From sequence record NC_054918.1: a stretch of 64,000 nucleotides of DNA. One strand, written 5' to 3'. Below the pieces are notes generated by a model, which was not told the origin of the DNA, made no database searches, and saw only the letters and a list, made by a program, of their open reading frames with translations. The position numbers and the translations under genes were made by a program. Below, one piece after another: positions 15,801-64,000 of the stretch; position 1 is the stretch's first letter, and each line of letters begins with the position of its first letter. The stretch comes from Escherichia phage vB_EcoM_G4498.

Positions 15801-16451
15801 TTATTTTTCCTTTCTTATGAAGTTTTCTATCATATGTCTATAGCAGATATTAGGATAACCTGCCTTGACAGCTATTTTATTAAATTTTGTGCGCTTAGGT
15901 CTATTATTATAAACCCATAATTCATAAAGCGCATCATAACTATTCCATATTTCTCCTCGCCTAGGATTTGGTAAACCATATCGAGGTGAATTTTTACCGC
16001 TAAATCTTCCTTTTCGGGCTTTACTCATATTAGCCTTGGCTTCATCGGATATAATTTTACCTTTATGAGCTAGACGCATTTTGGCTTTAGTTTCTTCTGG
16101 GGTCTTTTTGCCTTTAATCCATGACGGCTTGCCATATCTAGGATTATTTTCACCCGAGAAAAGAACAGAGTTTTGGATTTTAAGGGTTTCTATTAATCTA
16201 CTTGTTAATTTAACACCTTTATTATATCGCATTAAATTTACAGCATAATGCAATCCTCTCACATCTGGATATATTTTAGTTAATAATCTATGAGCTATAA
16301 AATGCTCACGCGCAGTTAACTCAACAAGATTGTTTTTGTCATCTGCTCCTCCTATACATCTAGGAATTATATGATGGCGTTCTTTATATCCGCCAAGATG
16401 CCGGCATTTAGCTTTTGTAATTAAAGCCGAGTAAATTTTTTGGTAATTCAC
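15801..16451 (-). CDS. HNH homing-endonuclease-like protein
   Basis: 216 aa; HHIIPRCIGGADDKNNLVELTAREHFIAH HNH motif; NUMOD-like GENNPRYGKP / GKNSPRYG repeats; GTG start with SD AAAGGA. Confidence 0.75.
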   Translation of the reverse strand: MNYQKIYSALITKAKCRHLGGYKERHHIIPRCIGGADDKNNLVELTAREHFIAHRLLTKIYPDVRGLHYAVNLMRYNKGVKLTSRLIETLKIQNSVLFSGENNPRYGKPSWIKGKKTPEETKAKMRLAHKGKIISDEAKANMSKARKGRFSGKNSPRYGLPNPRRGEIWNSYDALYELWVYNNRPKRTKFNKIAVKAGYPNICYRHMIENFIRKEK

Positions 16452-16483: not shown

Positions 16484-16508
16484 AATTATACAATAAATAT
16501 ATAAAGCA
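16484..16508 (-). promoter_or_regulatory. MotA-box middle promoter upstream of the HNH gene
   Basis: Minus strand TGCTTTA - 11 bp - TATAAT. Confidence 0.5.
16492..16499 (+). promoter_or_regulatory. late-promoter-like element (AATAAATA)
   Basis: 7/8 match to TATAAATA, about 22 nt upstream of the plus-strand small ORF. Confidence 0.35.
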
Positions 16509-16521
16509 ATAAGGAGGACAT

Positions 16522-16722
16522 ATGGTACAAAAATTAATGGCACTTGTTAATGCCATAAAAGGTAATAAGAAACGTATAGCTTTTACTATTTCTGCTATGG
16601 TAGGAATTTTACTCTGGAACTTTATTTTATCACCTGTTGCAATTGCACATGGTATTAATATTCCAGTAGTTACTCTTGATACATTCGTAGATTTAGCATT
16701 TGCTTTAGTTGGGTTAATTTAA
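16522..16722 (+). CDS. small hydrophobic (membrane) protein, plus strand
   Basis: 66 aa; strong SD AAGGAGGA 6 nt upstream; hydrophobic segments; convergent with gene 61. Confidence 0.5.
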   Translation: MVQKLMALVNAIKGNKKRIAFTISAMVGILLWNFILSPVAIAHGINIPVVTLDTFVDLAFALVGLI

Positions 16723-17747
16723 ATCTTAGCATATTTAGATAGCCGCATTTTAGCCATCAACCCCTGGGCAATATTATTTTTCATATATTCCATAATTTGT
16801 TCAGGGGTTGCACCTTCCTTTCTAATCATATCATTAACATCTTTTGATTTCCAGGGAGATTTATCCCAAAACATAACCCTTTCTCCTACATCAACTAATT
16901 TAGTCATTCGCTTGATAGTGTCAGGGTGACGAGGTTCATTATCTAAAACCCACACTCGTCTATCTTTAAATGGAACAACTTCTAGGTCTAATTGACCACC
17001 CGTAATAGCTATACCATTTTCAATAAAAAGTGAATCTATAGGTCCTTCTAGAACATATACATCACCATCTTTAACTCGTTCAACACCGTAAATTTTTGTT
17101 GCCTCAGGATAAGCTTTAATGGTGATATATTTTTGAGGAGCATCTTTCTTTAATGCACGTCCTTGAAAAGACTCAGCTTTTCCATTAGCATTATAAATTG
17201 GAATAACAAGACGAGGCTCAGAAATTTCCTTTTTGTATGTTCCCGGTGCTATGCTATTAACTAATTTAGGCCATTCGGTTGTAAACCAAAGATATTTCCA
17301 TTTATCCTTTGGAATACAACGAGCTTTTACATATTTTATAATTGGATGGTCTTCCGCCAGTTTATCTAATCTAACACATGACGGAAGAGATTTAATTATT
17401 TTCTTCTCAGGTTGCTTAGGAAGTTCTTTAGGTTTTTCTACTGGACGACTTTTACCTTTTTCTTTTCTTATTTCAAAAATATACTCACGATATAAATCAG
17501 GTTCAAACTCCTTTAAATATATTCCGATTGGTGCATGATAGTTACAGTTATAACAATGAATATTTCCTTCATTATTATCGCCGTAATACCATCCACGGGC
17601 TTTATTTTGGTCGGTTTTTGAATCTCCACAAACAGGGCATCTAAACCGTAATTTAAAAGTTGAACTATTATTTACTTGTGTGAATTTAGGTAAATGAGCT
17701 AGCGCACGGTATGCAAACTCATTATCAATCCAAGGTATTGATGACAT
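16719..17747 (-). CDS. 61: DNA primase
   Basis: 342 aa (T4 gp61 length); N-terminal zinc ribbon CPVCGDS...CYNC; TOPRIM-like core. Confidence 0.9.
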   Translation of the reverse strand: MSSIPWIDNEFAYRALAHLPKFTQVNNSSTFKLRFRCPVCGDSKTDQNKARGWYYGDNNEGNIHCYNCNYHAPIGIYLKEFEPDLYREYIFEIRKEKGKSRPVEKPKELPKQPEKKIIKSLPSCVRLDKLAEDHPIIKYVKARCIPKDKWKYLWFTTEWPKLVNSIAPGTYKKEISEPRLVIPIYNANGKAESFQGRALKKDAPQKYITIKAYPEATKIYGVERVKDGDVYVLEGPIDSLFIENGIAITGGQLDLEVVPFKDRRVWVLDNEPRHPDTIKRMTKLVDVGERVMFWDKSPWKSKDVNDMIRKEGATPEQIMEYMKNNIAQGLMAKMRLSKYAKI

Positions 17748-17749
17748 TT

Positions 17750-17914
17750 TTACTCTTCTTTTTCTTTAGATTCCTCTTTTTTCTTTTTAGGAATCTGTTC
17801 AGGACCTTTATTTACTACAGCGCCTGATGCTGTTCCAGTAGAGATATTTTCAGGATTACCACCTGAATCTCCAGCGACCATATCTTCTTTGATAAATTCT
17901 TTATATGTTTTCAT
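17750..17914 (-). CDS. small ORF (54 aa) with capsid-targeting-sequence-like N-terminus
   Basis: Not in ORF track (<60 aa). ATG 17914 with SD GAGGT; translation MKTYKEFIKEDMVAG...EKEE; N-terminus resembles MKTYQEFITE of the ip gene at 63049-63522. Confidence 0.45.
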   Translation of the reverse strand: MKTYKEFIKEDMVAGDSGGNPENISTGTASGAVVNKGPEQIPKKKKEESKEKEE

Positions 17915-17915
17915 A

Positions 17916-18542
17916 TTAACCTCTATTCATAAAAGCATTAAAAATTTGGTCATCAATAGAAACATTCACTTTAGACTGTTTTTCTGATGGTAATTCATAT
18001 CCACATATTACAATTTTATGATCAATATCAAAATACACAGAAGCAATATGATTAATGATGTTTTCAGTAAAGTCTAAATCAACATCAATATCTTTTTGAC
18101 CACAGCCCAAAGGATAAATAATGCGAGTAATTCGATTATCTTTAACAAAGATTCCACCGATATACTCTGTGCTGCGTTCAAAGTCTACACGCCGACGAAA
18201 TGAAAAATATTCAGGCTCTTTATGAGCTCGGCTCATAGGACACAACGAGTAACTAGAATAAGAGATGTCAAATCCTACGCCTTCAATATGAGCCAAATTA
18301 TCATGATTAAACCAATTATAATCGTACGCCAAGTCCATTAGATTATAATATGTGAAAGGCACCGGATTAACATCACTAGTCGCAAGCATGTAATTAGCAA
18401 CTGCTATAATTTCGTTGTTTTTAACGAATACAAACCGCGATTGATGCGAATGACCTGGACCTGCGTTTTCACGATTAATGATATAACACTGGGCACCTTT
18501 ATATTTGTACGTGTCTTTGCACTTGTGCATTTGATAAAGCAT
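17916..18542 (-). CDS. hypothetical protein (61.1 position)
   Basis: 208-aa ORF. Confidence 0.55.
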   Translation of the reverse strand: MLYQMHKCKDTYKYKGAQCYIINRENAGPGHSHQSRFVFVKNNEIIAVANYMLATSDVNPVPFTYYNLMDLAYDYNWFNHDNLAHIEGVGFDISYSSYSLCPMSRAHKEPEYFSFRRRVDFERSTEYIGGIFVKDNRITRIIYPLGCGQKDIDVDLDFTENIINHIASVYFDIDHKIVICGYELPSEKQSKVNVSIDDQIFNAFMNRG

Positions 18543-18835
18543 TATTCACCTACCACTTCAGCGATGATATTTTTATTATTGAAGTTTTTATCACAATACA
18601 GAACGTAATTATACTGCATTACACCACCAGACTTAAGCTGTTTTTGTACTTCAGCTTTCATTTCAGGGCGATCACGCTCAACGATATTCATAATATCTGC
18701 TTCAATCTGAGTTTCAACCTCAGTCTGATCTGCGGTCATAGACCATTCACACAAATCTTTATCATAACCTGCCATAGCAGGCTGAGCAGCACAAGAAGCC
18801 AAAGCAAAAATTGCAGCAAAAACAAATTTTTTCAT
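18542..18835 (-). CDS. sp: Spackle periplasmic protein (superinfection exclusion)
   Basis: 97 aa with signal peptide MKKFVFAAIFALASCAAQPAMA; matches remembered T4 Sp. Confidence 0.8.
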   Translation of the reverse strand: MKKFVFAAIFALASCAAQPAMAGYDKDLCEWSMTADQTEVETQIEADIMNIVERDRPEMKAEVQKQLKSGGVMQYNYVLYCDKNFNNKNIIAEVVGE

Positions 18836-18892
18836 GATAATCTCCTCAGTAGTTTATGTTTATATAGTATCTCAATTTCCAACAAAAGTAAA

Positions 18893-19147
18893 CTATTTTA
18901 TTTCCTCAAGTTCGTTAATCAATAAAAGTTCTCTGACGCTAAAAACAAAGAAAAATGTGTTCCCATCAACCAGAGCATGACCGCTAATAGAACACCCTCT
19001 GCGGAATTTAGAAACTTCACAATCTAGAACTGTAAAGGGTTTTAATCCTATGACTTTAGCTATGCGTCTATTCAGTTCACAACCACTTGCGAATTTTTCC
19101 AAATCTTCTTCTGATTTAAACTGATATTCTCTATTAACTAGCATCAT
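18893..19147 (-). CDS. small hypothetical protein
   Basis: 84-aa ORF downstream of an early promoter; SD GGAGA. Confidence 0.5.
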   Translation of the reverse strand: MMLVNREYQFKSEEDLEKFASGCELNRRIAKVIGLKPFTVLDCEVSKFRRGCSISGHALVDGNTFFFVFSVRELLLINELEEIK

Positions 19148-19177
19148 TTTCTTTTCTCCGCGATTAGCTGATAGAAT

Positions 19178-19210
19178 TACTATAACACAACTCTATCAGC
19201 TTGTAAACTA
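19178..19210 (-). promoter_or_regulatory. early promoter
   Basis: Minus strand GTTTAC-N17-GTGTTATAGTA. Confidence 0.55.
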
Positions 19211-19453
19211 CTATTTTACTAGCATCAATAACTGTTTCTCTAACTTGACGATTTTACGAAAGTATCTTTTGCATTGGCGAATCTGCCGCTTCGTAGGGCG
19301 CACAGCAAACTTAATAAATTCAACTCGACCAAATGGAGGACTTTCTTCTGCTGGAATATCTAACACCAATTCCCACGTATCTGCAATAAGTGCTTTGAAT
19401 TGAGTATTTTTCCTGACATTATACGGAGTAGGTTTAAATAAAACAATGTGCAT
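19211..19453 (-). CDS. small hypothetical protein
   Basis: ORF track gives 19211-19495 with a TTG start; ATG at 19453 with SD GAGGA, 1 nt after the dmd stop, is more plausible. Confidence 0.45.
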   Translation of the reverse strand: MHIVLFKPTPYNVRKNTQFKALIADTWELVLDIPAEESPPFGRVEFIKFAVRPTKRQIRQCKRYFRKIVKLEKQLLMLVK

Positions 19454-19454
19454 A

Positions 19455-19637
19455 TTATCCTCGGCAATCCACTTCGCATACTTTCTTGTCATCAATGAAA
19501 GCTTTAACTAATGCTTTATTAACTTCAGCATATTGAGTAGTAGCCCATTGAACGTCGTCTTTCATCATTGTGATTTCTTTAGTAAACATGCTTTCATTCT
19601 TAAACCACCCCATAAAAACTACCTTTACCAATTCCAT
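19455..19637 (-). CDS. dmd: Dmd, antitoxin against host RnlA/LsoA
   Basis: 60 aa MELVKVVFMGWFKNESMF...; matches remembered T4 Dmd. Confidence 0.85.
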   Translation of the reverse strand: MELVKVVFMGWFKNESMFTKEITMMKDDVQWATTQYAEVNKALVKAFIDDKKVCEVDCRG

Positions 19638-19665
19638 AACAATCTCCTCATTTAACCAACAAGAC

Positions 19666-19698
19666 TACTATACCATAGTCCTGTCAGCTTGTAAACTA
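19666..19698 (-). promoter_or_regulatory. early promoter upstream of dmd
   Basis: Minus strand GTTTAC-N17-TGGTATAGTA. Confidence 0.65.
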
Positions 19699-21123
19699 AA
19701 ATTTTAATTCATTTGCCAAAGCATCTAACTGGGCTCGAGTAGATTCGTTTCTTTGATAGCGATTCTGCTCAGCCTGAATCTGCTGTGAACCTGCTACTTC
19801 GTTAACTTCAGTTGGAGTAGAATCTTGCTCAATTTCTACCCATTTTTGATTTCCTTTTTGAACACCCATCAAAAACTTATTCCATTTATTCTTATCACCA
19901 TATCGTGATTTGATTTGCTTAATGAGTTGTTGTTCAGCAGCTGCTAACTCCTCGGTTTCAATGACCGCAAGCATAAAATCAGCTGTTGCTGGAAGACCAG
20001 CAGATTCTGCAATATCGCTCATGTTAACATCAGAAGAATCCCAAGCTTGTTTACCAACCTGCGCTGCAGTCCAAAGAACAGTTTCGGTTTCAACAGCCAG
20101 AGCACGCAATTCCTCTGCAATAGCTTTAACAGTTGTGTAACTATTTTCTGAATAAACTCTAATGCGGCAAGATTTACAAATACCTAGATAGTCGACAATA
20201 ATGATTGTTGGAACAAAATTCTTCTTGAGCTTCAATTCGTTTAAAAGTGATCGAAATGTATTAGCATCTGCTCCACCGGTAGGATACTGTTTAACGATTA
20301 AACGACCGAGAGTAGATTTCTCACGCCATTTTTCCATTTTTCCTTTATACTCAGCGTAAGAAATATGCCCATCATCAATGTCATCAAGAGAAACATCAAG
20401 CATATTAGCATCAATACGCTTAGCACAGACTTCTTCTGCCATTTCCATGGAAATGTAAAGAACGTTATGACCAAGCTGCAAATAATCTGCTGCCAATGAA
20501 CACAATCCTAATGACTTACCAACGTTAACGCCAGCCATTAAAACGTTCAGTGTTCCAGTCTCAGCTCCGCCTTTAGTAATTTTGTTTAGAATTCTGAGTT
20601 TAAATGGAACCTTACGAGCTTTATTCATATAAGATAGCCAACGCGCTTCGTAGTCATCCATCCAGTCATGACCAACGTAGCTATCAAATGAAATTGATAA
20701 TGCTTGCCGCATGATGTCAGGAATAGCACCAACATCCGGCATTTTCTTATTTCGTTTTTCCGGAGGAAGCTCAGCATTAGTTTGAATTTCGATTATTTTA
20801 GACGTAGCATTAAACATCGCCCTTTGCTGAACATATTTTTCTGTTTCTTTTACTAACCAGCTGTGGTCTTCCGGAGAATCAGCCAGTTTTGAAATAAGTG
20901 TTTTTACACCAGAATATTCTGTTTCAGTAAATGAACTATTTTCTAATGCAACATTTAACGCATTAATAGATGGAACGCTATGATACTCATTAACATGAGA
21001 TTTAATTAATTTGAATGTATTTTTAGCTGGACCACTTTCAAAATATTCTGAATCCATATATGGCCAAACTTTTGAAAAATAAGCTTGATCAAATATGAGA
21101 TGAGAAAGAATAATTTCTACCAC
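19696..21123 (-). CDS. 41: replicative DNA helicase (DnaB-like)
   Basis: 475 aa (T4 gp41 length); Walker A GVNVGKS. Confidence 0.9.
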   Translation of the reverse strand: MVEIILSHLIFDQAYFSKVWPYMDSEYFESGPAKNTFKLIKSHVNEYHSVPSINALNVALENSSFTETEYSGVKTLISKLADSPEDHSWLVKETEKYVQQRAMFNATSKIIEIQTNAELPPEKRNKKMPDVGAIPDIMRQALSISFDSYVGHDWMDDYEARWLSYMNKARKVPFKLRILNKITKGGAETGTLNVLMAGVNVGKSLGLCSLAADYLQLGHNVLYISMEMAEEVCAKRIDANMLDVSLDDIDDGHISYAEYKGKMEKWREKSTLGRLIVKQYPTGGADANTFRSLLNELKLKKNFVPTIIIVDYLGICKSCRIRVYSENSYTTVKAIAEELRALAVETETVLWTAAQVGKQAWDSSDVNMSDIAESAGLPATADFMLAVIETEELAAAEQQLIKQIKSRYGDKNKWNKFLMGVQKGNQKWVEIEQDSTPTEVNEVAGSQQIQAEQNRYQRNESTRAQLDALANELKF

Positions 21124-61494: not shown

Positions 61495-61672
61495 CTAAAC
61501 GAATGGGTTCATGAATGCCATATCCCTGAACAGAAATTTCTGTCGTAGGATAAATTCCATCAATATCACCCATATTCCACGCTTCATTAAATTGCTGTTC
61601 GCCTGAATTACTAAACCACTCGGCGAAAGCATTTAGCACATCTTCAGAACCTTCAATAATTATCTTTGCCAT
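61451..61672 (-). CDS. small hypothetical protein
   Basis: 73-aa ORF. Confidence 0.45.
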   Translation of the reverse strand: MAKIIIEGSEDVLNAFAEWFSNSGEQQFNEAWNMGDIDGIYPTTEISVQGYGIHEPIRLVEYDLCTGEEVKYD

Positions 61673-62034
61673 TACAAACTCTCGGTAAAGGTACGAGCGA
61701 TAACGTCGCGCTGCTGTTCCGGAGTCAGAGAGTTAAAGCGAACTGCATAACCGGATACACGGATGGTCAGCTGCGGATATTTTTCCGGATGCTTAACTGC
61801 ATCTTCCAGAGTTTCACGACGCAGAACGTTAACGTTCAGGTGTTGACCACCTTCAATTTTAACTGTAGGCTGTGGCTCAATTTCAATTTCACGGGCATGC
61901 AAACCATAGAAAATTTCTGGGTCTACAAAAGAGTCCTCTTTAAAGGTTTTAGAAACGATAATTCGTGCTTGAATACCATCTTCAAAATAAATAGTACCTT
62001 TATGTGTTCCTTCAAGAATTTGATATGCTTTCAT
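61672..62034 (-). CDS. autonomous glycyl-radical cofactor (YfiD/GrcA-like)
   Basis: 120 aa; C-terminal [25 protein letters not shown] glycyl-radical motif. Confidence 0.75.
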
Positions 62035-63048: not shown

Positions 63049-63522
63049 TTATTTGAACGATTTAACGTACTGAATAGAACCTTTACTATTCACAAAGGCA
63101 ATTTTACCATTTTTGTTATACATAGTAGCAGTACGTTGATAACCGTAAGTTTGTTTACCAGATTGATAACCAACTAATGCGAAATTATCTTCACCCATTT
63201 TATTCTGTTTAGCGCGAATGCGTTCATGACCATGTGCCATAAGAACCTTAGCATCACCAGTTGCAATGGATCGACGAGTTTTTTCATCTTCAGCTGTATT
63301 AACAAAGTCGTCAAATGAATCAAATTTAGCATGAGATTTATTATACAGTTTTCCATCTACTGCATAATTATATCCTTGTACATCCATCTCAACTTCTGTA
63401 CCATCATCTAATACAGCAGTAATTTTCTGTCCTTTTTTAAATTTCAAAAGATCAGTAAAAGATTCAGCAATAATTTGAGAATTAATAGCTGCCTCAGTAA
63501 TAAATTCTTGATATGTTTTCAT
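63049..63522 (-). CDS. internal protein (IPII/IPIII-like) with capsid targeting sequence
   Basis: 157 aa starting MKTYQEFITEAA, resembling the T4 internal-protein CTS. Confidence 0.7.
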   Translation of the reverse strand: MKTYQEFITEAAINSQIIAESFTDLLKFKKGQKITAVLDDGTEVEMDVQGYNYAVDGKLYNKSHAKFDSFDDFVNTAEDEKTRRSIATGDAKVLMAHGHERIRAKQNKMGEDNFALVGYQSGKQTYGYQRTATMYNKNGKIAFVNSKGSIQYVKSFK

Positions 63523-63630: not shown

Positions 63631-64000
63631 TTAAGAATTACCGCGGGCTGCATTAGCAACGGCGTAAGCGTACTGAACATTAGCGTCTTTAAACGTACCT
63701 TTAGAGGTATCTATTTCTGCCCTAAAGCCGCCTTTAGTCATAACATCGGCAAATTCTTTACGGAAAGCCATTGCATCAAGACTTCTCCATGATGATTTGT
63801 GCTTGGCAAATTCAAGACCTGCGAAGTTGACAGCTTTAGCCAATTTATTATCAATGACCCATTTACCGGCTTTAGGCACAAACTTCGGGCCTTTTTGTTT
63901 AGAGAACAGTTTTAAATTCCAGCGACGAAGGTCACTGTCGGCTTTAACAAAAGCTGCGTCTAAGTTACTAGCAACAACATCTTCAATATGAGCAAATTTA
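63631..64000 (-). CDS. hypothetical protein, 3' part only (CDS continues past window end)
   Basis: Minus-strand frame stays open from 64000 down to the stop at 63631; C-terminus ...KGGFRAEIDTSKGTFKDANVQYAYAVANAARGNS. Confidence 0.5.
   Translation of the reverse strand, partial: KFAHIEDVVASNLDAAFVKADSDLRRWNLKLFSKQKGPKFVPKAGKWVIDNKLAKAVNFAGLEFAKHKSSWRSLDAMAFRKEFADVMTKGGFRAEIDTSKGTFKDANVQYAYAVANAARGNS

What the first reader, a model, noticed from the sequence alone, without database searches (positions are those of the whole stretch)
17750..17914. Untracked 54-codon ORF between primase and 61.1 carries an internal-protein-like capsid targeting sequence
The minus-strand ORF starts at ATG 17914 (SD GAGGT, 1 nt after the 61.1 stop) and ends 2 nt before the gene 61 ATG. 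Its first ten residues, MKTYKEFIKE, closely match the MKTYQEFITE leader of the ip gene at 63049-63522. In T4 that ~10-residue leader targets internal proteins into the prohead and is cleaved after Glu by the prohead protease. The rest is low-complexity Gly/Ser/Lys/Glu. This could be a small packaged protein sitting in the replication-gene cluster, or a relic of an ip-cassette leader.
Basis: partly seen in the sequence, partly recalled or inferred. Interest (0 to 1): 0.65.

Follow-up and report, generated by a model that had tools for sequence, protein, structure and literature searches.

The report
T4 gene 61.1: capsid-protein mimic
The 54-codon ORF is the already annotated T4 gene 61.1, whose product carries a leader like that of packaged internal proteins followed by a copy of the cleavage site and N-terminal arm of the phage's own major capsid protein, which makes it a testable candidate for a small head-assembly or packaged peptide.

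Summary
The ORF at 17750-17914 (minus strand) is real, and its leader MKTYKEFIKE fits the internal-protein capsid targeting sequence. It is not "untracked": it is T4 gene 61.1. The rest of the protein is not low-complexity filler. Residues 10-38 align without gaps to gp23 residues 65-93, which are the prohead-protease cleavage site LTE|A and the "N-fist" of mature gp23. This core is the most constrained part of the gene (pN/pS 0.14, against 0.35 for the leader).

Homologues lie next to the primase gene in about 1400 T4-like phage records. Distant ones are 127-177 aa, and the T4 form is only their C-terminal module. All forms keep a hydrophobic-x-Glu motif just before the module. The module matches the capsid-protein N-terminus of its own lineage across 12 lineages (permutation p = 5e-5), including Sinorhizobium phage phiM19.

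In JS98 the ip leaders stay canonical while the 61.1 leader has drifted, so the leader is not a strictly maintained targeting sequence.

Best reading (about 0.45): a peptide targeted to the prohead, cut by gp21, that mimics the capsid protein's N-terminal arm. Packaging and cleavage are untested. I found no literature on its function.

The parts
17750..17914 (-). Gene 61.1 ORF (54 codons plus stop)
   Evidence: ORF list and sequence. Annotated as 61.1 in T4T and RB32 at the same position. phrog_1823 E = 1.1e-32. pN/pS below 1 in all segments.
17919..17923 (-). Shine-Dalgarno-like GAGGT, 4 nt (17915-17918) upstream of the ATG; it lies in the last codons of 61.2
   Evidence: Read directly from the sequence.
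17885..17914 (-). Leader, codons 1-10 (MKTYKEFIKE), resembling the capsid targeting sequence; ends in I-K-E, which fits the gp21 L/I-x-E cleavage motif
   Evidence: 8/10 identical to T4 IPII/IPIII and to the window's ip ORF. Fits the pattern of eight ip leaders. Motif L/I-X-E from PMC9026906. pN/pS 0.35. AF2 predicts a helix at residues 4-13.
17801..17884 (-). Core module, codons 11-38 (DMVAGDSGGNPENISTGTASGAVVNKGP); aligns to gp23 residues 66-93, the N-fist of mature gp23*
   Evidence: BLASTP against T4 gp23: E = 7e-8, no gaps. Ungapped score 66 at gp23 offset 65, next best 12, 0 of 1000 shuffles reach it. The only significant PDB hit is gp23. HHalign 95.6%, E = 1.1e-8. pN/pS 0.14. N-fist defined as residues 66-91 in PMC7136217.
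17753..17800 (-). Tail, codons 39-54 (EQIPKKKKEESKEKEE): conserved EQIP and a Lys/Arg cluster, then a variable acidic end
   Evidence: E39, P42 and K44 are invariant among the short forms of A4, E39 and P42 in the 16 unique short forms. T6-type frameshift variants replace the acidic end. All lineages have a basic cluster here.
16719..17747 (-). Context: gene 61 (DNA primase), directly downstream; the 61.1 stop is 2 nt before its ATG
   Evidence: 61.1 is the gene directly upstream of primase in CC31, JS98, Apostate, PspYZU05 and AsFcp_4. One small gene intervenes in MIZ3, KPN-12i and phiM19.
17916..18542 (-).
   Evidence: Pfam PF23813 E = 9.5e-135. T4T annotation.
63049..63522 (-). Comparator: internal-protein cassette (DUF7412) with the canonical leader MKTYQEFITE|A, at the ipII position

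Best explanation
The ORF is gene 61.1, a small early-transcribed protein built from three pieces:
1. A 10-residue leader that fits the T4 capsid targeting sequence and ends in the gp21 protease motif I-K-E.
2. A disordered module of about 30 residues that copies the N-terminal arm ('N-fist') of the mature major capsid protein gp23*, in exact register with gp23's own maturation cut (LTE65|A66).
3. A Lys-rich tail.

Proposed mechanism (inferred, not shown):
- The leader, and possibly the module itself, takes the protein into the scaffolding core of the prohead.
- gp21 cuts after Glu10 at the same time as it cuts gp23.
- The freed 44-residue peptide competes for or fills sites on the scaffold or shell that bind the gp23 N-terminal arm. 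Alternatively it stays on the DNA through its basic cluster.

Shown: the ORF is a conserved coding gene. The module is homologous to the gp23 N-terminus. The module tracks the capsid-protein N-terminus of its own lineage across distant phages. The hydrophobic-x-Glu motif is universal.

Inferred: prohead localisation, cleavage, and the site of action.
For: - Identity and conservation: annotated as 61.1. The module is found in 1409 phage records. pN/pS is 0.35 for the leader, 0.14 for the core and 0.02 for residues 39-42, with synonymous variation at almost every core codon.
- Leader: only two targeting-sequence-grade 10-mers occur in the six-frame scan. It fits the pattern of the ip leaders of T4T, JS98 and the window. 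Residues 4, 7, 8 and 10 are kept (PMC9026906).
- gp23 mimicry: BLASTP E = 7e-8, without gaps, Glu10 on Glu65. Ungapped score 66 against a next best of 12, and 0 of 1000 shuffles reach it. In all of PDB only gp23 is hit (E = 4.2e-5). HHalign 95.6%.
- Family invariants: 9 of the 13 invariant or nearly invariant positions in the region that aligns to gp23 (residues 10-38) equal gp23 residues.
- Cleavage motif: P3 is L/I/V/M and P1 is Glu in all short and long forms. The gp21 motif is L/I-X-E.
- Tracking of own capsid protein: the phiM19 homologue matches its own capsid protein exactly after the predicted cut (12/21, E = 0.003) and does not match T4 gp23. A marine homologue matches a marine capsid-protein fragment (E = 1e-5). 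The KVP40-like pair shares AVV.GD and TTGAVTN. In the 12-lineage matrix the permutation p is 5e-5, and 0.003 within the N-fist lineages.
- Precedent for head genes in this cluster: gene 40 lies next to gene 41 and soc next to gene 56.
- The ip genes also have early RNA in T4 (PMC9697503 supplement).
Against: - There is no experimental evidence of packaging or cleavage. gp61.1 was not classified at protein level in the T4 time-course proteome (PMC9697503 supplement file 4). The text and held supplements of the T4 virion mass-spectrometry paper do not mention it.
- The leader is the least constrained part and is not kept canonical outside Tequatrovirus. JS98 61.1 has MKSFKEVMNE while five JS98 ip leaders keep MKTY.EF[IL].E. 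T4 itself has Phe4.
- P1' is Asp, Glu, Asn, Ser or Met rather than the Ala or Ser of the ip leaders.
- The processed peptide in this window is acidic (pI 5.0), unlike the basic internal proteins.
- There is no late promoter TATAAATA on this strand within tens of kb upstream.
- The T4-type module is the least well matched to its own gp23 of the 12 lineages (rank 6).
- The permutation tests are not corrected for phylogeny. Three of the 12 pairs are not from the same genome. The compared segments were delimited by hand.
Confidence: 0.45

Rival explanations
1. A cytoplasmic mimic that is never packaged. The early-made, disordered copy of the gp23 N-terminus acts before and outside the prohead. It could be a decoy or antagonist for a host factor that recognises newly made capsid protein, such as a defence sensor, EF-Tu/Lit or a chaperone. 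It could be a decoy substrate or inhibitor of prematurely active gp21. Or it could cap capsomer contact sites on unassembled gp23.
For: - RNA is early (PMC9697503 supplement), and there is no late promoter.
- The gene sits at the edge of the dmd-tifA-sp-adfA 'anti-TA island' (bioRxiv 10.1101/2022.04.14.488369).
- gp23 is a known trigger of Lit/Gol and of CmdTAC (PMC3014915; PMC11618068).
- Matching the own capsid protein fits any partner that reads the capsid-protein N-terminus.
Against: - 61.1 is far more widely conserved than the island genes. It stays next to primase where adfA is absent, as in JS98 and CC31. Anti-defence genes are usually patchy.
- The module stops exactly where the Gol region of gp23 would begin, on my recollection that Gol starts near residue 93.
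- For CmdTAC, a decoy that binds the chaperone would be expected to trigger the system, not block it (inference).
- This reading does not explain why the cleavage motif is kept in register, or why T-even forms carry a leader like the targeting sequence.
Confidence: 0.28
2. A replication-linked protein whose resemblance to the targeting sequence is incidental. The ancestral long form works with the primase/helicase module through its helical N-domain. The T-even form is a truncation whose new N-terminus is the remnant of the last helix of that domain. The gp23-like stretch would then be a shared linear motif with another role.
For: - The gene lies upstream of gene 61, directly adjacent or one small gene away, in every lineage examined, including phiM19.
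- In the alignment the T4 leader lies over the last helix of the long-form N-domain (QKEIFEALPLFE).
- The N-domain occurs in about 1800 representative proteins, one of them next to ribonucleotide reductase.
- The 61.1 stop is 2 nt from the gene 61 start in this window.
Against: - T-even phages lost the N-domain altogether (only the module matches) yet keep the module under strong purifying selection. The conserved function therefore lies in the capsid-like module.
- Lineage-specific matching to the capsid protein has no obvious explanation under a replication role.
- The tight spacing to gene 61 is not conserved: the gap is 38-39 nt in JS98 and CC31.
Confidence: 0.12
3. A translational-coupling leader ORF. 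The peptide itself would be unimportant, and the ORF would exist to deliver ribosomes to the gene 61 start.
For: The stop is 2 nt before the gene 61 ATG, and the ORF has a good Shine-Dalgarno sequence.
Against: The amino-acid sequence is strongly conserved while synonymous sites vary freely (pN/pS 0.14 in the core). The spacing to gene 61 varies between genera.
Confidence: 0.04
4. A relic of an ip-cassette leader, or a chance ORF.
For: The leader is 8/10 identical to ip leaders. ip loci are known to be variable, and this window carries a different cassette at the ipII position.
Against: The gene is present at a fixed position in more than 1400 phage records across many genera. It is under purifying selection. 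Its long forms have no ip-type leader.
Confidence: 0.02

Closest known systems
T4 internal proteins IPI/IPII/IPIII and other ip-cassette proteins with a capsid targeting sequence (CTS)
   Same: An N-terminal 10-mer MKTY.EF[IL].E ending in the gp21 motif. The critical residues 4, 7, 8 and 10 are kept. RNA is early in both.
   Different: - Not in an ip locus.
- Asp instead of Ala or Ser after the cut.
- The mature part is 44 aa, disordered and acidic here, rather than a basic folded protein.
- The leader is not conserved among orthologues, and distant orthologues have no such leader.
[quoted passage not shown]
   Same: Gapless alignment of 61.1 residues 2-38 with gp23 residues 57-93. Most family invariants are shared. 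The cleavage glutamates are in the same register. The module follows lineage-specific changes of the capsid-protein N-terminus.
   Different: There is no HK97-fold body and no Pfam Gp23 match. After Pro38 a Lys/Arg tail replaces the conserved AVMGMVRRAIPNL segment. Database names such as 'major capsid protein' for 61.1 are therefore misleading.
gp21 substrates processed at sites other than a simple N-terminal propeptide (Alt, cut at ITE-6 and LTE-619; core proteins gp22, gp67, gp68)
   Same: A short L/I-x-E site. In the long forms the site is internal, about 45 residues from the C-terminus, like the C-terminal cut of Alt (PMC5694885).
   Different: Cleavage of 61.1 has never been shown. P3 is V or M in many lineages.
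Encapsulin cargo-loading peptides (a functional analogy recalled from general knowledge, not tested here)
   Same: A short, conserved, disordered C-terminal peptide follows a folded N-terminal domain in the long forms, in a system with an HK97-fold shell.
   Different: There is no sequence relation. Here the peptide copies the shell protein's own N-terminal arm and is preceded by a protease site. T-even forms carry no cargo domain.

Membership tests
T4 gene 61.1 family (phrog_1823 short form, phrog_2086 long form) | Sequence match to the family profile over the whole protein | tested here: met
   phrog_1823 E = 1.1e-32 over residues 1-54. phrog_2086 E = 5.8e-16 over residues 8-53. 93-100% identity to database members.
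T4 gene 61.1 family (phrog_1823 short form, phrog_2086 long form) | Position directly upstream of primase gene 61, same strand | tested here: met
   Window, T4T and RB32, CC31, Apostate, PspYZU05, JS98 and AsFcp_4.
CTS-bearing internal proteins of T4-like phages | N-terminal 10-mer matching MKTY[QKN]EF[IL]xE, with residues 4 and 7 (targeting) and 8 and 10 (processing) | tested here: met
   MKTYKEFIKE. Pattern taken from T4T IPII/IPIII, five JS98 ORFs and the window's ip ORF. Critical positions from PMC9026906.
CTS-bearing internal proteins of T4-like phages | Small residue (Ala or Ser) immediately after the cleaved Glu | tested here: not met
   Asp11 in the window. All eight ip leaders examined have Ala or Ser.
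CTS-bearing internal proteins of T4-like phages | Leader kept canonical in related phages | tested here: not met
   JS98 61.1 has MKSFKEVMNE while JS98 ip leaders are canonical. T4T has MKTFKEFIKE. Other genera have MTLLEKYKQSLSE or a 108-aa domain.
CTS-bearing internal proteins of T4-like phages | Basic mature protein encoded in a variable ip locus | tested here: not met
   Mature peptide pI 5.0, against 9.1-9.7 for the internal proteins. The locus is fixed next to primase.
CTS-bearing internal proteins of T4-like phages | Presence in the virion and removal of the leader by gp21 | not testable with these tools
   No proteomic record was found. The protein class is 'NA' in PMC9697503 supplement file 4. 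It is absent from the text and held supplements of PMC5694885.
gp21 prohead-protease substrates | L/I-x-E motif at the cut, conserved among orthologues | tested here: met
   I-K-E in the window. P3 is L/I/V/M and P1 is Glu in all forms, in register with gp23 L-T-E65. Motif from PMC9026906.
gp21 prohead-protease substrates | Location inside the assembled prohead, and actual cleavage | not testable with these tools
   Needs virion or prohead mass spectrometry, or an in vitro gp21 assay.
Major capsid protein Gp23 (Pfam PF07068), as some records name it | HK97-fold body matching the Gp23 profile | tested here: not met
   No Pfam hit even at E <= 10. The Pfam model covers gp23 residues 88-517. Only gp23 residues 57-93 (up to 50-103 with profiles) are matched.
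Anti-defence genes of the T4 dmd-tifA-adfA island | Location in the island, patchy distribution, and a demonstrated target | tested here: inconclusive
   The gene is adjacent to adfA. Its distribution is broad and fixed to primase, not patchy. No target could be tested.
Gol peptide of gp23 (activator of the Lit protease) | Covers the conserved gp23 segment that begins around residue 93 (position recalled from memory; PMC3014915 gives only '29 residues in the first quarter') | tested here: not met
   The BLASTP alignment ends at gp23 Pro93. Beyond that, 61.1 has EQIPKKKK in place of AVMGMVRRAIPNL.

The most novel reading that the evidence does not exclude
Gene 61.1 would be the minimal member of a widespread phage family. 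Each member carries a co-evolving copy of its own major capsid protein's N-terminal arm, protease site included. The copy would act as a portable signal that takes the bearer to the sites in the procapsid that hold the capsid protein's arm, or lets it compete for them. This self-mimicry would be functionally comparable to encapsulin cargo-loading peptides. In long forms it would load and then release a helical cargo domain of about 100 aa. In T-even phages only the mimic remains, re-fitted with an ip-type targeting leader.
Probability: 0.3. Interest if true: 0.8.

Novelty: new variant of a known kind. Interest (0 to 1): 0.64.

Why it matters
Gene 61.1 is among the more widely kept genes of unknown function in T4-like phages, and T4 head assembly is a reference system. 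If the peptide is packaged and cut by gp21, it adds an overlooked component to the T4 prohead and shows the targeting sequence in use outside the ip loci. The lineage-specific copying of the capsid protein's N-terminal arm, seen from T4 to phiM19, points to a conserved interaction site for that arm on the scaffold, protease or neighbouring capsomer. A 44-residue natural ligand could be used to probe that site. The result also corrects records that call this gene a "major capsid protein". Simple experiments would settle the question: virion mass spectrometry, a leader-GFP packaging test, and a CRISPR knockout.

Tried and rejected
- **Pfam on the 54-aa protein:** no hit.
- **Rfam on 16500-19800:** nothing relevant.
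- **HMMER against 1.84 billion representatives:** the profile came to be dominated by the long-form N-domain. The search mapped that domain (1801 hits) rather than all carriers of the N-fist motif.
- **Context of one distant N-domain protein:** next to ribonucleotide reductase, uninformative.
- **Third protein search, gp23 residues 1-135:** returned only 11 fragments. These were enough for a profile but not for pairing by genome.
- **Co-variation of the leader with ip leaders:** tested in JS98 and not found.
- **Co-variation of the module with gp23 among close relatives only:** weak (14.31 against 14.04 of 31, p = 0.05). It became clear only when distant lineages were added.
- **Recent gene conversion between gene 23 and 61.1:** rejected. 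Nucleotide identity is 55%, and third positions match at 11 of 29.
- **Gol-peptide mimic:** rejected, because the alignment stops at gp23 Pro93.
- **Late promoter upstream:** none found.
- **Literature:** nine searches and several full-text look-ups found no statement on gp61.1 function, packaging, or its likeness to the targeting sequence or to gp23. The T4 genome review (PMC150520) is not held, so an older remark there cannot be excluded.

Full report
**What is in the window**

The minus-strand ORF 17750-17914 exists exactly as described. It has 54 codons and translates to MKTYKEFIKEDMVAGDSGGNPENISTGTASGAVVNKGPEQIPKKKKEESKEKEE. GAGGT lies 4 nt upstream of the ATG. The ATG is 1 nt after the upstream stop codon, and the ORF's own stop is 2 nt before the gene 61 ATG.

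A six-frame scan of every 10-mer in the 64 kb finds only two sites with 6 or more identities to the internal-protein leader MKTYQEFIAE. One is the ip ORF at 63522 (9/10) and the other is this ORF (8/10). The resemblance is therefore real and not chance.

**Identity**

The region is 97-99% identical to hundreds of Tequatrovirus genomes. In T4T and RB32 the same 54-codon ORF is annotated as gene 61.1, and the 208-codon gene upstream is 61.2.

So the ORF is not untracked. 61.2 is AdfA, the anti-DarT factor (Pfam E = 9.5e-135). Further upstream lie spackle, two small ORFs (84 aa with no Pfam hit; 94 aa, DUF7279) in the T4 61.4 (tifA) region, and dmd. Srikant et al. called this stretch an anti-TA island.

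Among short homologues the invariant residues are E10, MVAGD (12-16), G18, G19, I24, G27, T28, G31, N35-E39, P42 and K44.

Nei-Gojobori counts on 16 distinct short-form genes give these pN/pS values:

| Segment | pN/pS |
|---|---|
| Leader (codons 2-10) | 0.35 |
| Core (codons 12-38) | 0.14 |
| Codons 39-42 | 0.02 |

Synonymous variation occurs at almost every core codon. This is a translated gene, and its centre is more constrained than its leader.

**The core copies the N-terminus of the major capsid protein**

- BLASTP against T4 gp23 aligns residues 2-38 with gp23 residues 57-93 without gaps (41% identity, E = 7e-8). Glu10 falls on Glu65, after which gp21 cuts gp23 (PMC9546572).
- The ungapped score of residues 10-38 is 66 at gp23 offset 65 and at most 12 at any other offset. 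None of 1000 shuffles reaches 66.
- A profile of long-form homologues searched against all PDB sequences hits only gp23 (E = 4.2e-5, profile positions 96-146 against gp23 50-101).
- A profile-profile comparison of the 61.1 family with gp23 N-termini gives 95.6% probability and E = 1.1e-8.
- gp23 residues 66-91 are the "N-fist". It is disordered and internal in the unexpanded head. After expansion it is externalised, makes contacts between capsomers and forms part of the Soc site. Capsid-length mutations map to A66, A94 and G97 (PMC7136217, PMC9546572).
- Several database records name 61.1 "major capsid (domain-containing) protein". This name overreaches, because there is no Gp23 Pfam match.

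**Distribution and ancestry**

tblastn finds the module in 1409 phage records from Escherichia, Klebsiella, Aeromonas, Acinetobacter, Pseudomonas, Erwinia and other hosts.

In Karamvirus, Lazarusvirus, Pseudotevenvirus, Jiangsuvirus, Angelvirus and KVP40-like phages the gene encodes 127-177 aa: a helical N-domain followed by the same module. It lies directly upstream of primase, or with one small gene in between. The T-even 54-aa protein is only the C-terminal module. T-even genomes have no N-domain elsewhere.

The N-domain (phrog_2086/phrog_18642) occurs in about 1800 representative proteins with varied C-termini. It has no Pfam family and no structural neighbour. AF2 predicts the module to be disordered in both the long and the short form.

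**A conserved cut site**

In every form a hydrophobic-x-Glu motif lies immediately before (D/E)MVAGD. Examples are FIKE, FVNE, VMNE, KLNE, SLSE, PLFE, LIKE, RLNE, ALQE, RMLE and SMLE. The gp21 motif is L/I-X-E (PMC9026906). The motif is in register with gp23 LTE65.

**The module follows the capsid protein of its own lineage**

This is the strongest new result.

- *Sinorhizobium phage phiM19 (Emdodecavirus).* The homologue lies one gene from primase and ends ...YIVE|VEGSAVPSTNTGNIPDTVAKKSPVLKRKEK. Its own capsid protein reads ...LLQE|AAPTTNTGNIATYDPVLISLVRR. BLASTP places the best match exactly there (12/21, E = 0.003). Neither phiM19 61.1 against T4 gp23 nor T4 61.1 against the phiM19 capsid protein gives such a match.
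- *A marine homologue.* It ends ...MINE|EPTNVIGDSGENDNIDTFDPIMKGMRRR and matches a marine capsid-protein fragment ...FLTE|AAPTNQTGDNIDNFDPVLISLVRR (E = 1e-5). The two sequences are not from one genome.
- *KVP40-like phages.* The 61.1 module (E|AVVAGD...TTGAVTNAGP) and gp23 (E|AVVNGD...TTGAVTNIGP) share features that T4 lacks.
- *All 12 lineages.* In a matrix of global alignment scores the own-lineage mean is 75.0 and permutation gives p = 5e-5. Within the ten N-fist lineages the means are 80.4 against 75.9 (p = 0.003). The own capsid protein ranks first in 5 of 12 lineages and first or second in 9 of 12.

Caveats:
- The segments were delimited by hand.
- Three pairs are only from the same genus (two pairs) or wholly unpaired (the marine pair), not from one genome.
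- The test ignores the tree.
- The T4-type module is the least matched to its own gp23 (rank 6).
- Among close relatives alone the signal is weak (p = 0.05).

Recent gene conversion is excluded for T4. Nucleotide identity is 55% and third codon positions match at 11 of 29.

The module was not among the common hits in Synechococcus phages, although 389 of their records have gp23 homologues.

**Is the leader a true capsid targeting sequence?**

For:
- The window's leader fits MKTY[QKN]EF[IL][ATKN]E. This pattern covers T4 IPII/IPIII, five JS98 ORFs and the window's ip ORF.
- It keeps residues 4 and 7 (targeting) and 8 and 10 (processing) (PMC9026906).
- Both of its deviations from MKTYQEFIAE, K5 and K9, occur in JS98 ip leaders.

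Against:
- T4 itself has MKTFKEFIKE.
- JS98 61.1 has MKSFKEVMNE while JS98 ip leaders stay canonical.
- Other genera have MTLLEKYKQSLSE, longer leaders or the N-domain.
- In the family alignment the leader lies over the last helix of the long-form N-domain.
- The residue after the cut is Asp, not Ala or Ser.
- The processed peptide is acidic here (pI 5.0) but basic in CC31 and in T6-type frameshift variants.

The end of the gp23 delta-piece (AFGSFLTE) has the same aromatic-x-x-F-hydrophobic-x-E spacing as the targeting sequence. The two signals may therefore be related. This is an inference from the sequences only.

**Expression**

There is no TATAAATA on this strand near the gene. In T4 omics data the 61.1 RNA is early and the protein is unclassified. 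The ip genes also have early RNA, and their protein accumulates late (PMC9697503 supplement). No virion proteome that I could read mentions 61.1.

**Interpretation**

The most economical reading joins three observations:
1. The leader is of a kind known to be sufficient for packaging.
2. A protease motif is conserved in register with gp23's cut.
3. The module is kept similar to the arm of the capsid protein that lies inside the prohead next to the scaffold.

On this reading gp61.1 enters the prohead core, is cut by gp21, and its module engages the sites that bind the gp23 arm. I put this at about 0.45.

The rivals are:

| Reading | Confidence |
|---|---|
| Cytoplasmic decoy or regulator | 0.28 |
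| Replication-linked role with an incidental leader | 0.12 |
| Pure translational coupling to gene 61 | 0.04 |
| ip-cassette relic or chance ORF | 0.02 |

Genes 40 and soc show that head genes do occur in this early cluster.

**Novelty**

The gene is known and annotated, but its function is unknown. I found no paper on its function, on the resemblance of its leader to the targeting sequence, or on its relation to gp23. The T4 genome review could not be read. I classify the finding as a new variant of a known kind: a substrate-like protein of the prohead protease and targeting system, with the unusual property of copying the capsid protein's own N-terminal arm.

Noticed in passing
L043, L049-L052 (IMG/VR T4-like contigs, 37-151 kb, some from human-associated samples), around locus position 2500-2560: In-frame TAG codons lie inside the conserved 61.1 motif (GGNP*NIASG, where L043 has Gln) and 8 codons upstream of VVAGD. 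The real stop is TAA. This suggests TAG is read as Gln in this T4-like lineage.
   Followed up: partly
window 15801-16451 (-): A 216-aa ORF with a NUMOD3 motif, resembling a homing endonuclease, sits between gene 56 and gene 61, where T4 carries dam and dam.1. This phage lacks dam at that position.
   Followed up: partly
window 61672-62034 (-): A stand-alone 120-aa ORF consists of a glycyl-radical domain (Pfam PF01228, E = 2.8e-18) and ends ...RVSGYAVRF.... It looks like an autonomous glycyl-radical cofactor rather than a full nrdD or pfl gene.
   Followed up: no
window 63049-63522 (-) and 63631-64000 (-): The ORF at the ipII position is a different internal-protein cassette (DUF7412, phrog_3155) with a canonical targeting leader. 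The window ends inside ipIII, whose C-terminal 82 residues match T4 IPIII.
   Followed up: partly
P0002, P0004 (T6-type 61.1, 62 aa); equivalent to window 17750-17790: A frameshift in the A-run turns the tail KKKKEESKEKEE into KKKKRNLKKKKSKNVINTLD. The ORF then overlaps the gene 61 start and the peptide becomes basic (pI 10). The acidic end therefore seems dispensable.
   Followed up: partly
[not shown]
   Followed up: partly
window 17828-17830 (codon 29 of 61.1): This phage has Ala29 (GCA). In the 16 distinct short-form genes compared, the other 15 have Thr here, and gp23 has Thr at the aligned position (Thr84).
   Followed up: no
GenBank/UniRef records for 61.1 homologues (e.g. H15, H25, H72, H79, H97, P0002, P0064, P0104): 61.1 homologues are named 'major capsid protein' or 'major capsid domain-containing protein'. 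Only 30-40 residues of the gp23 N-terminus are matched, so these names are misannotations that will propagate.
   Followed up: yes
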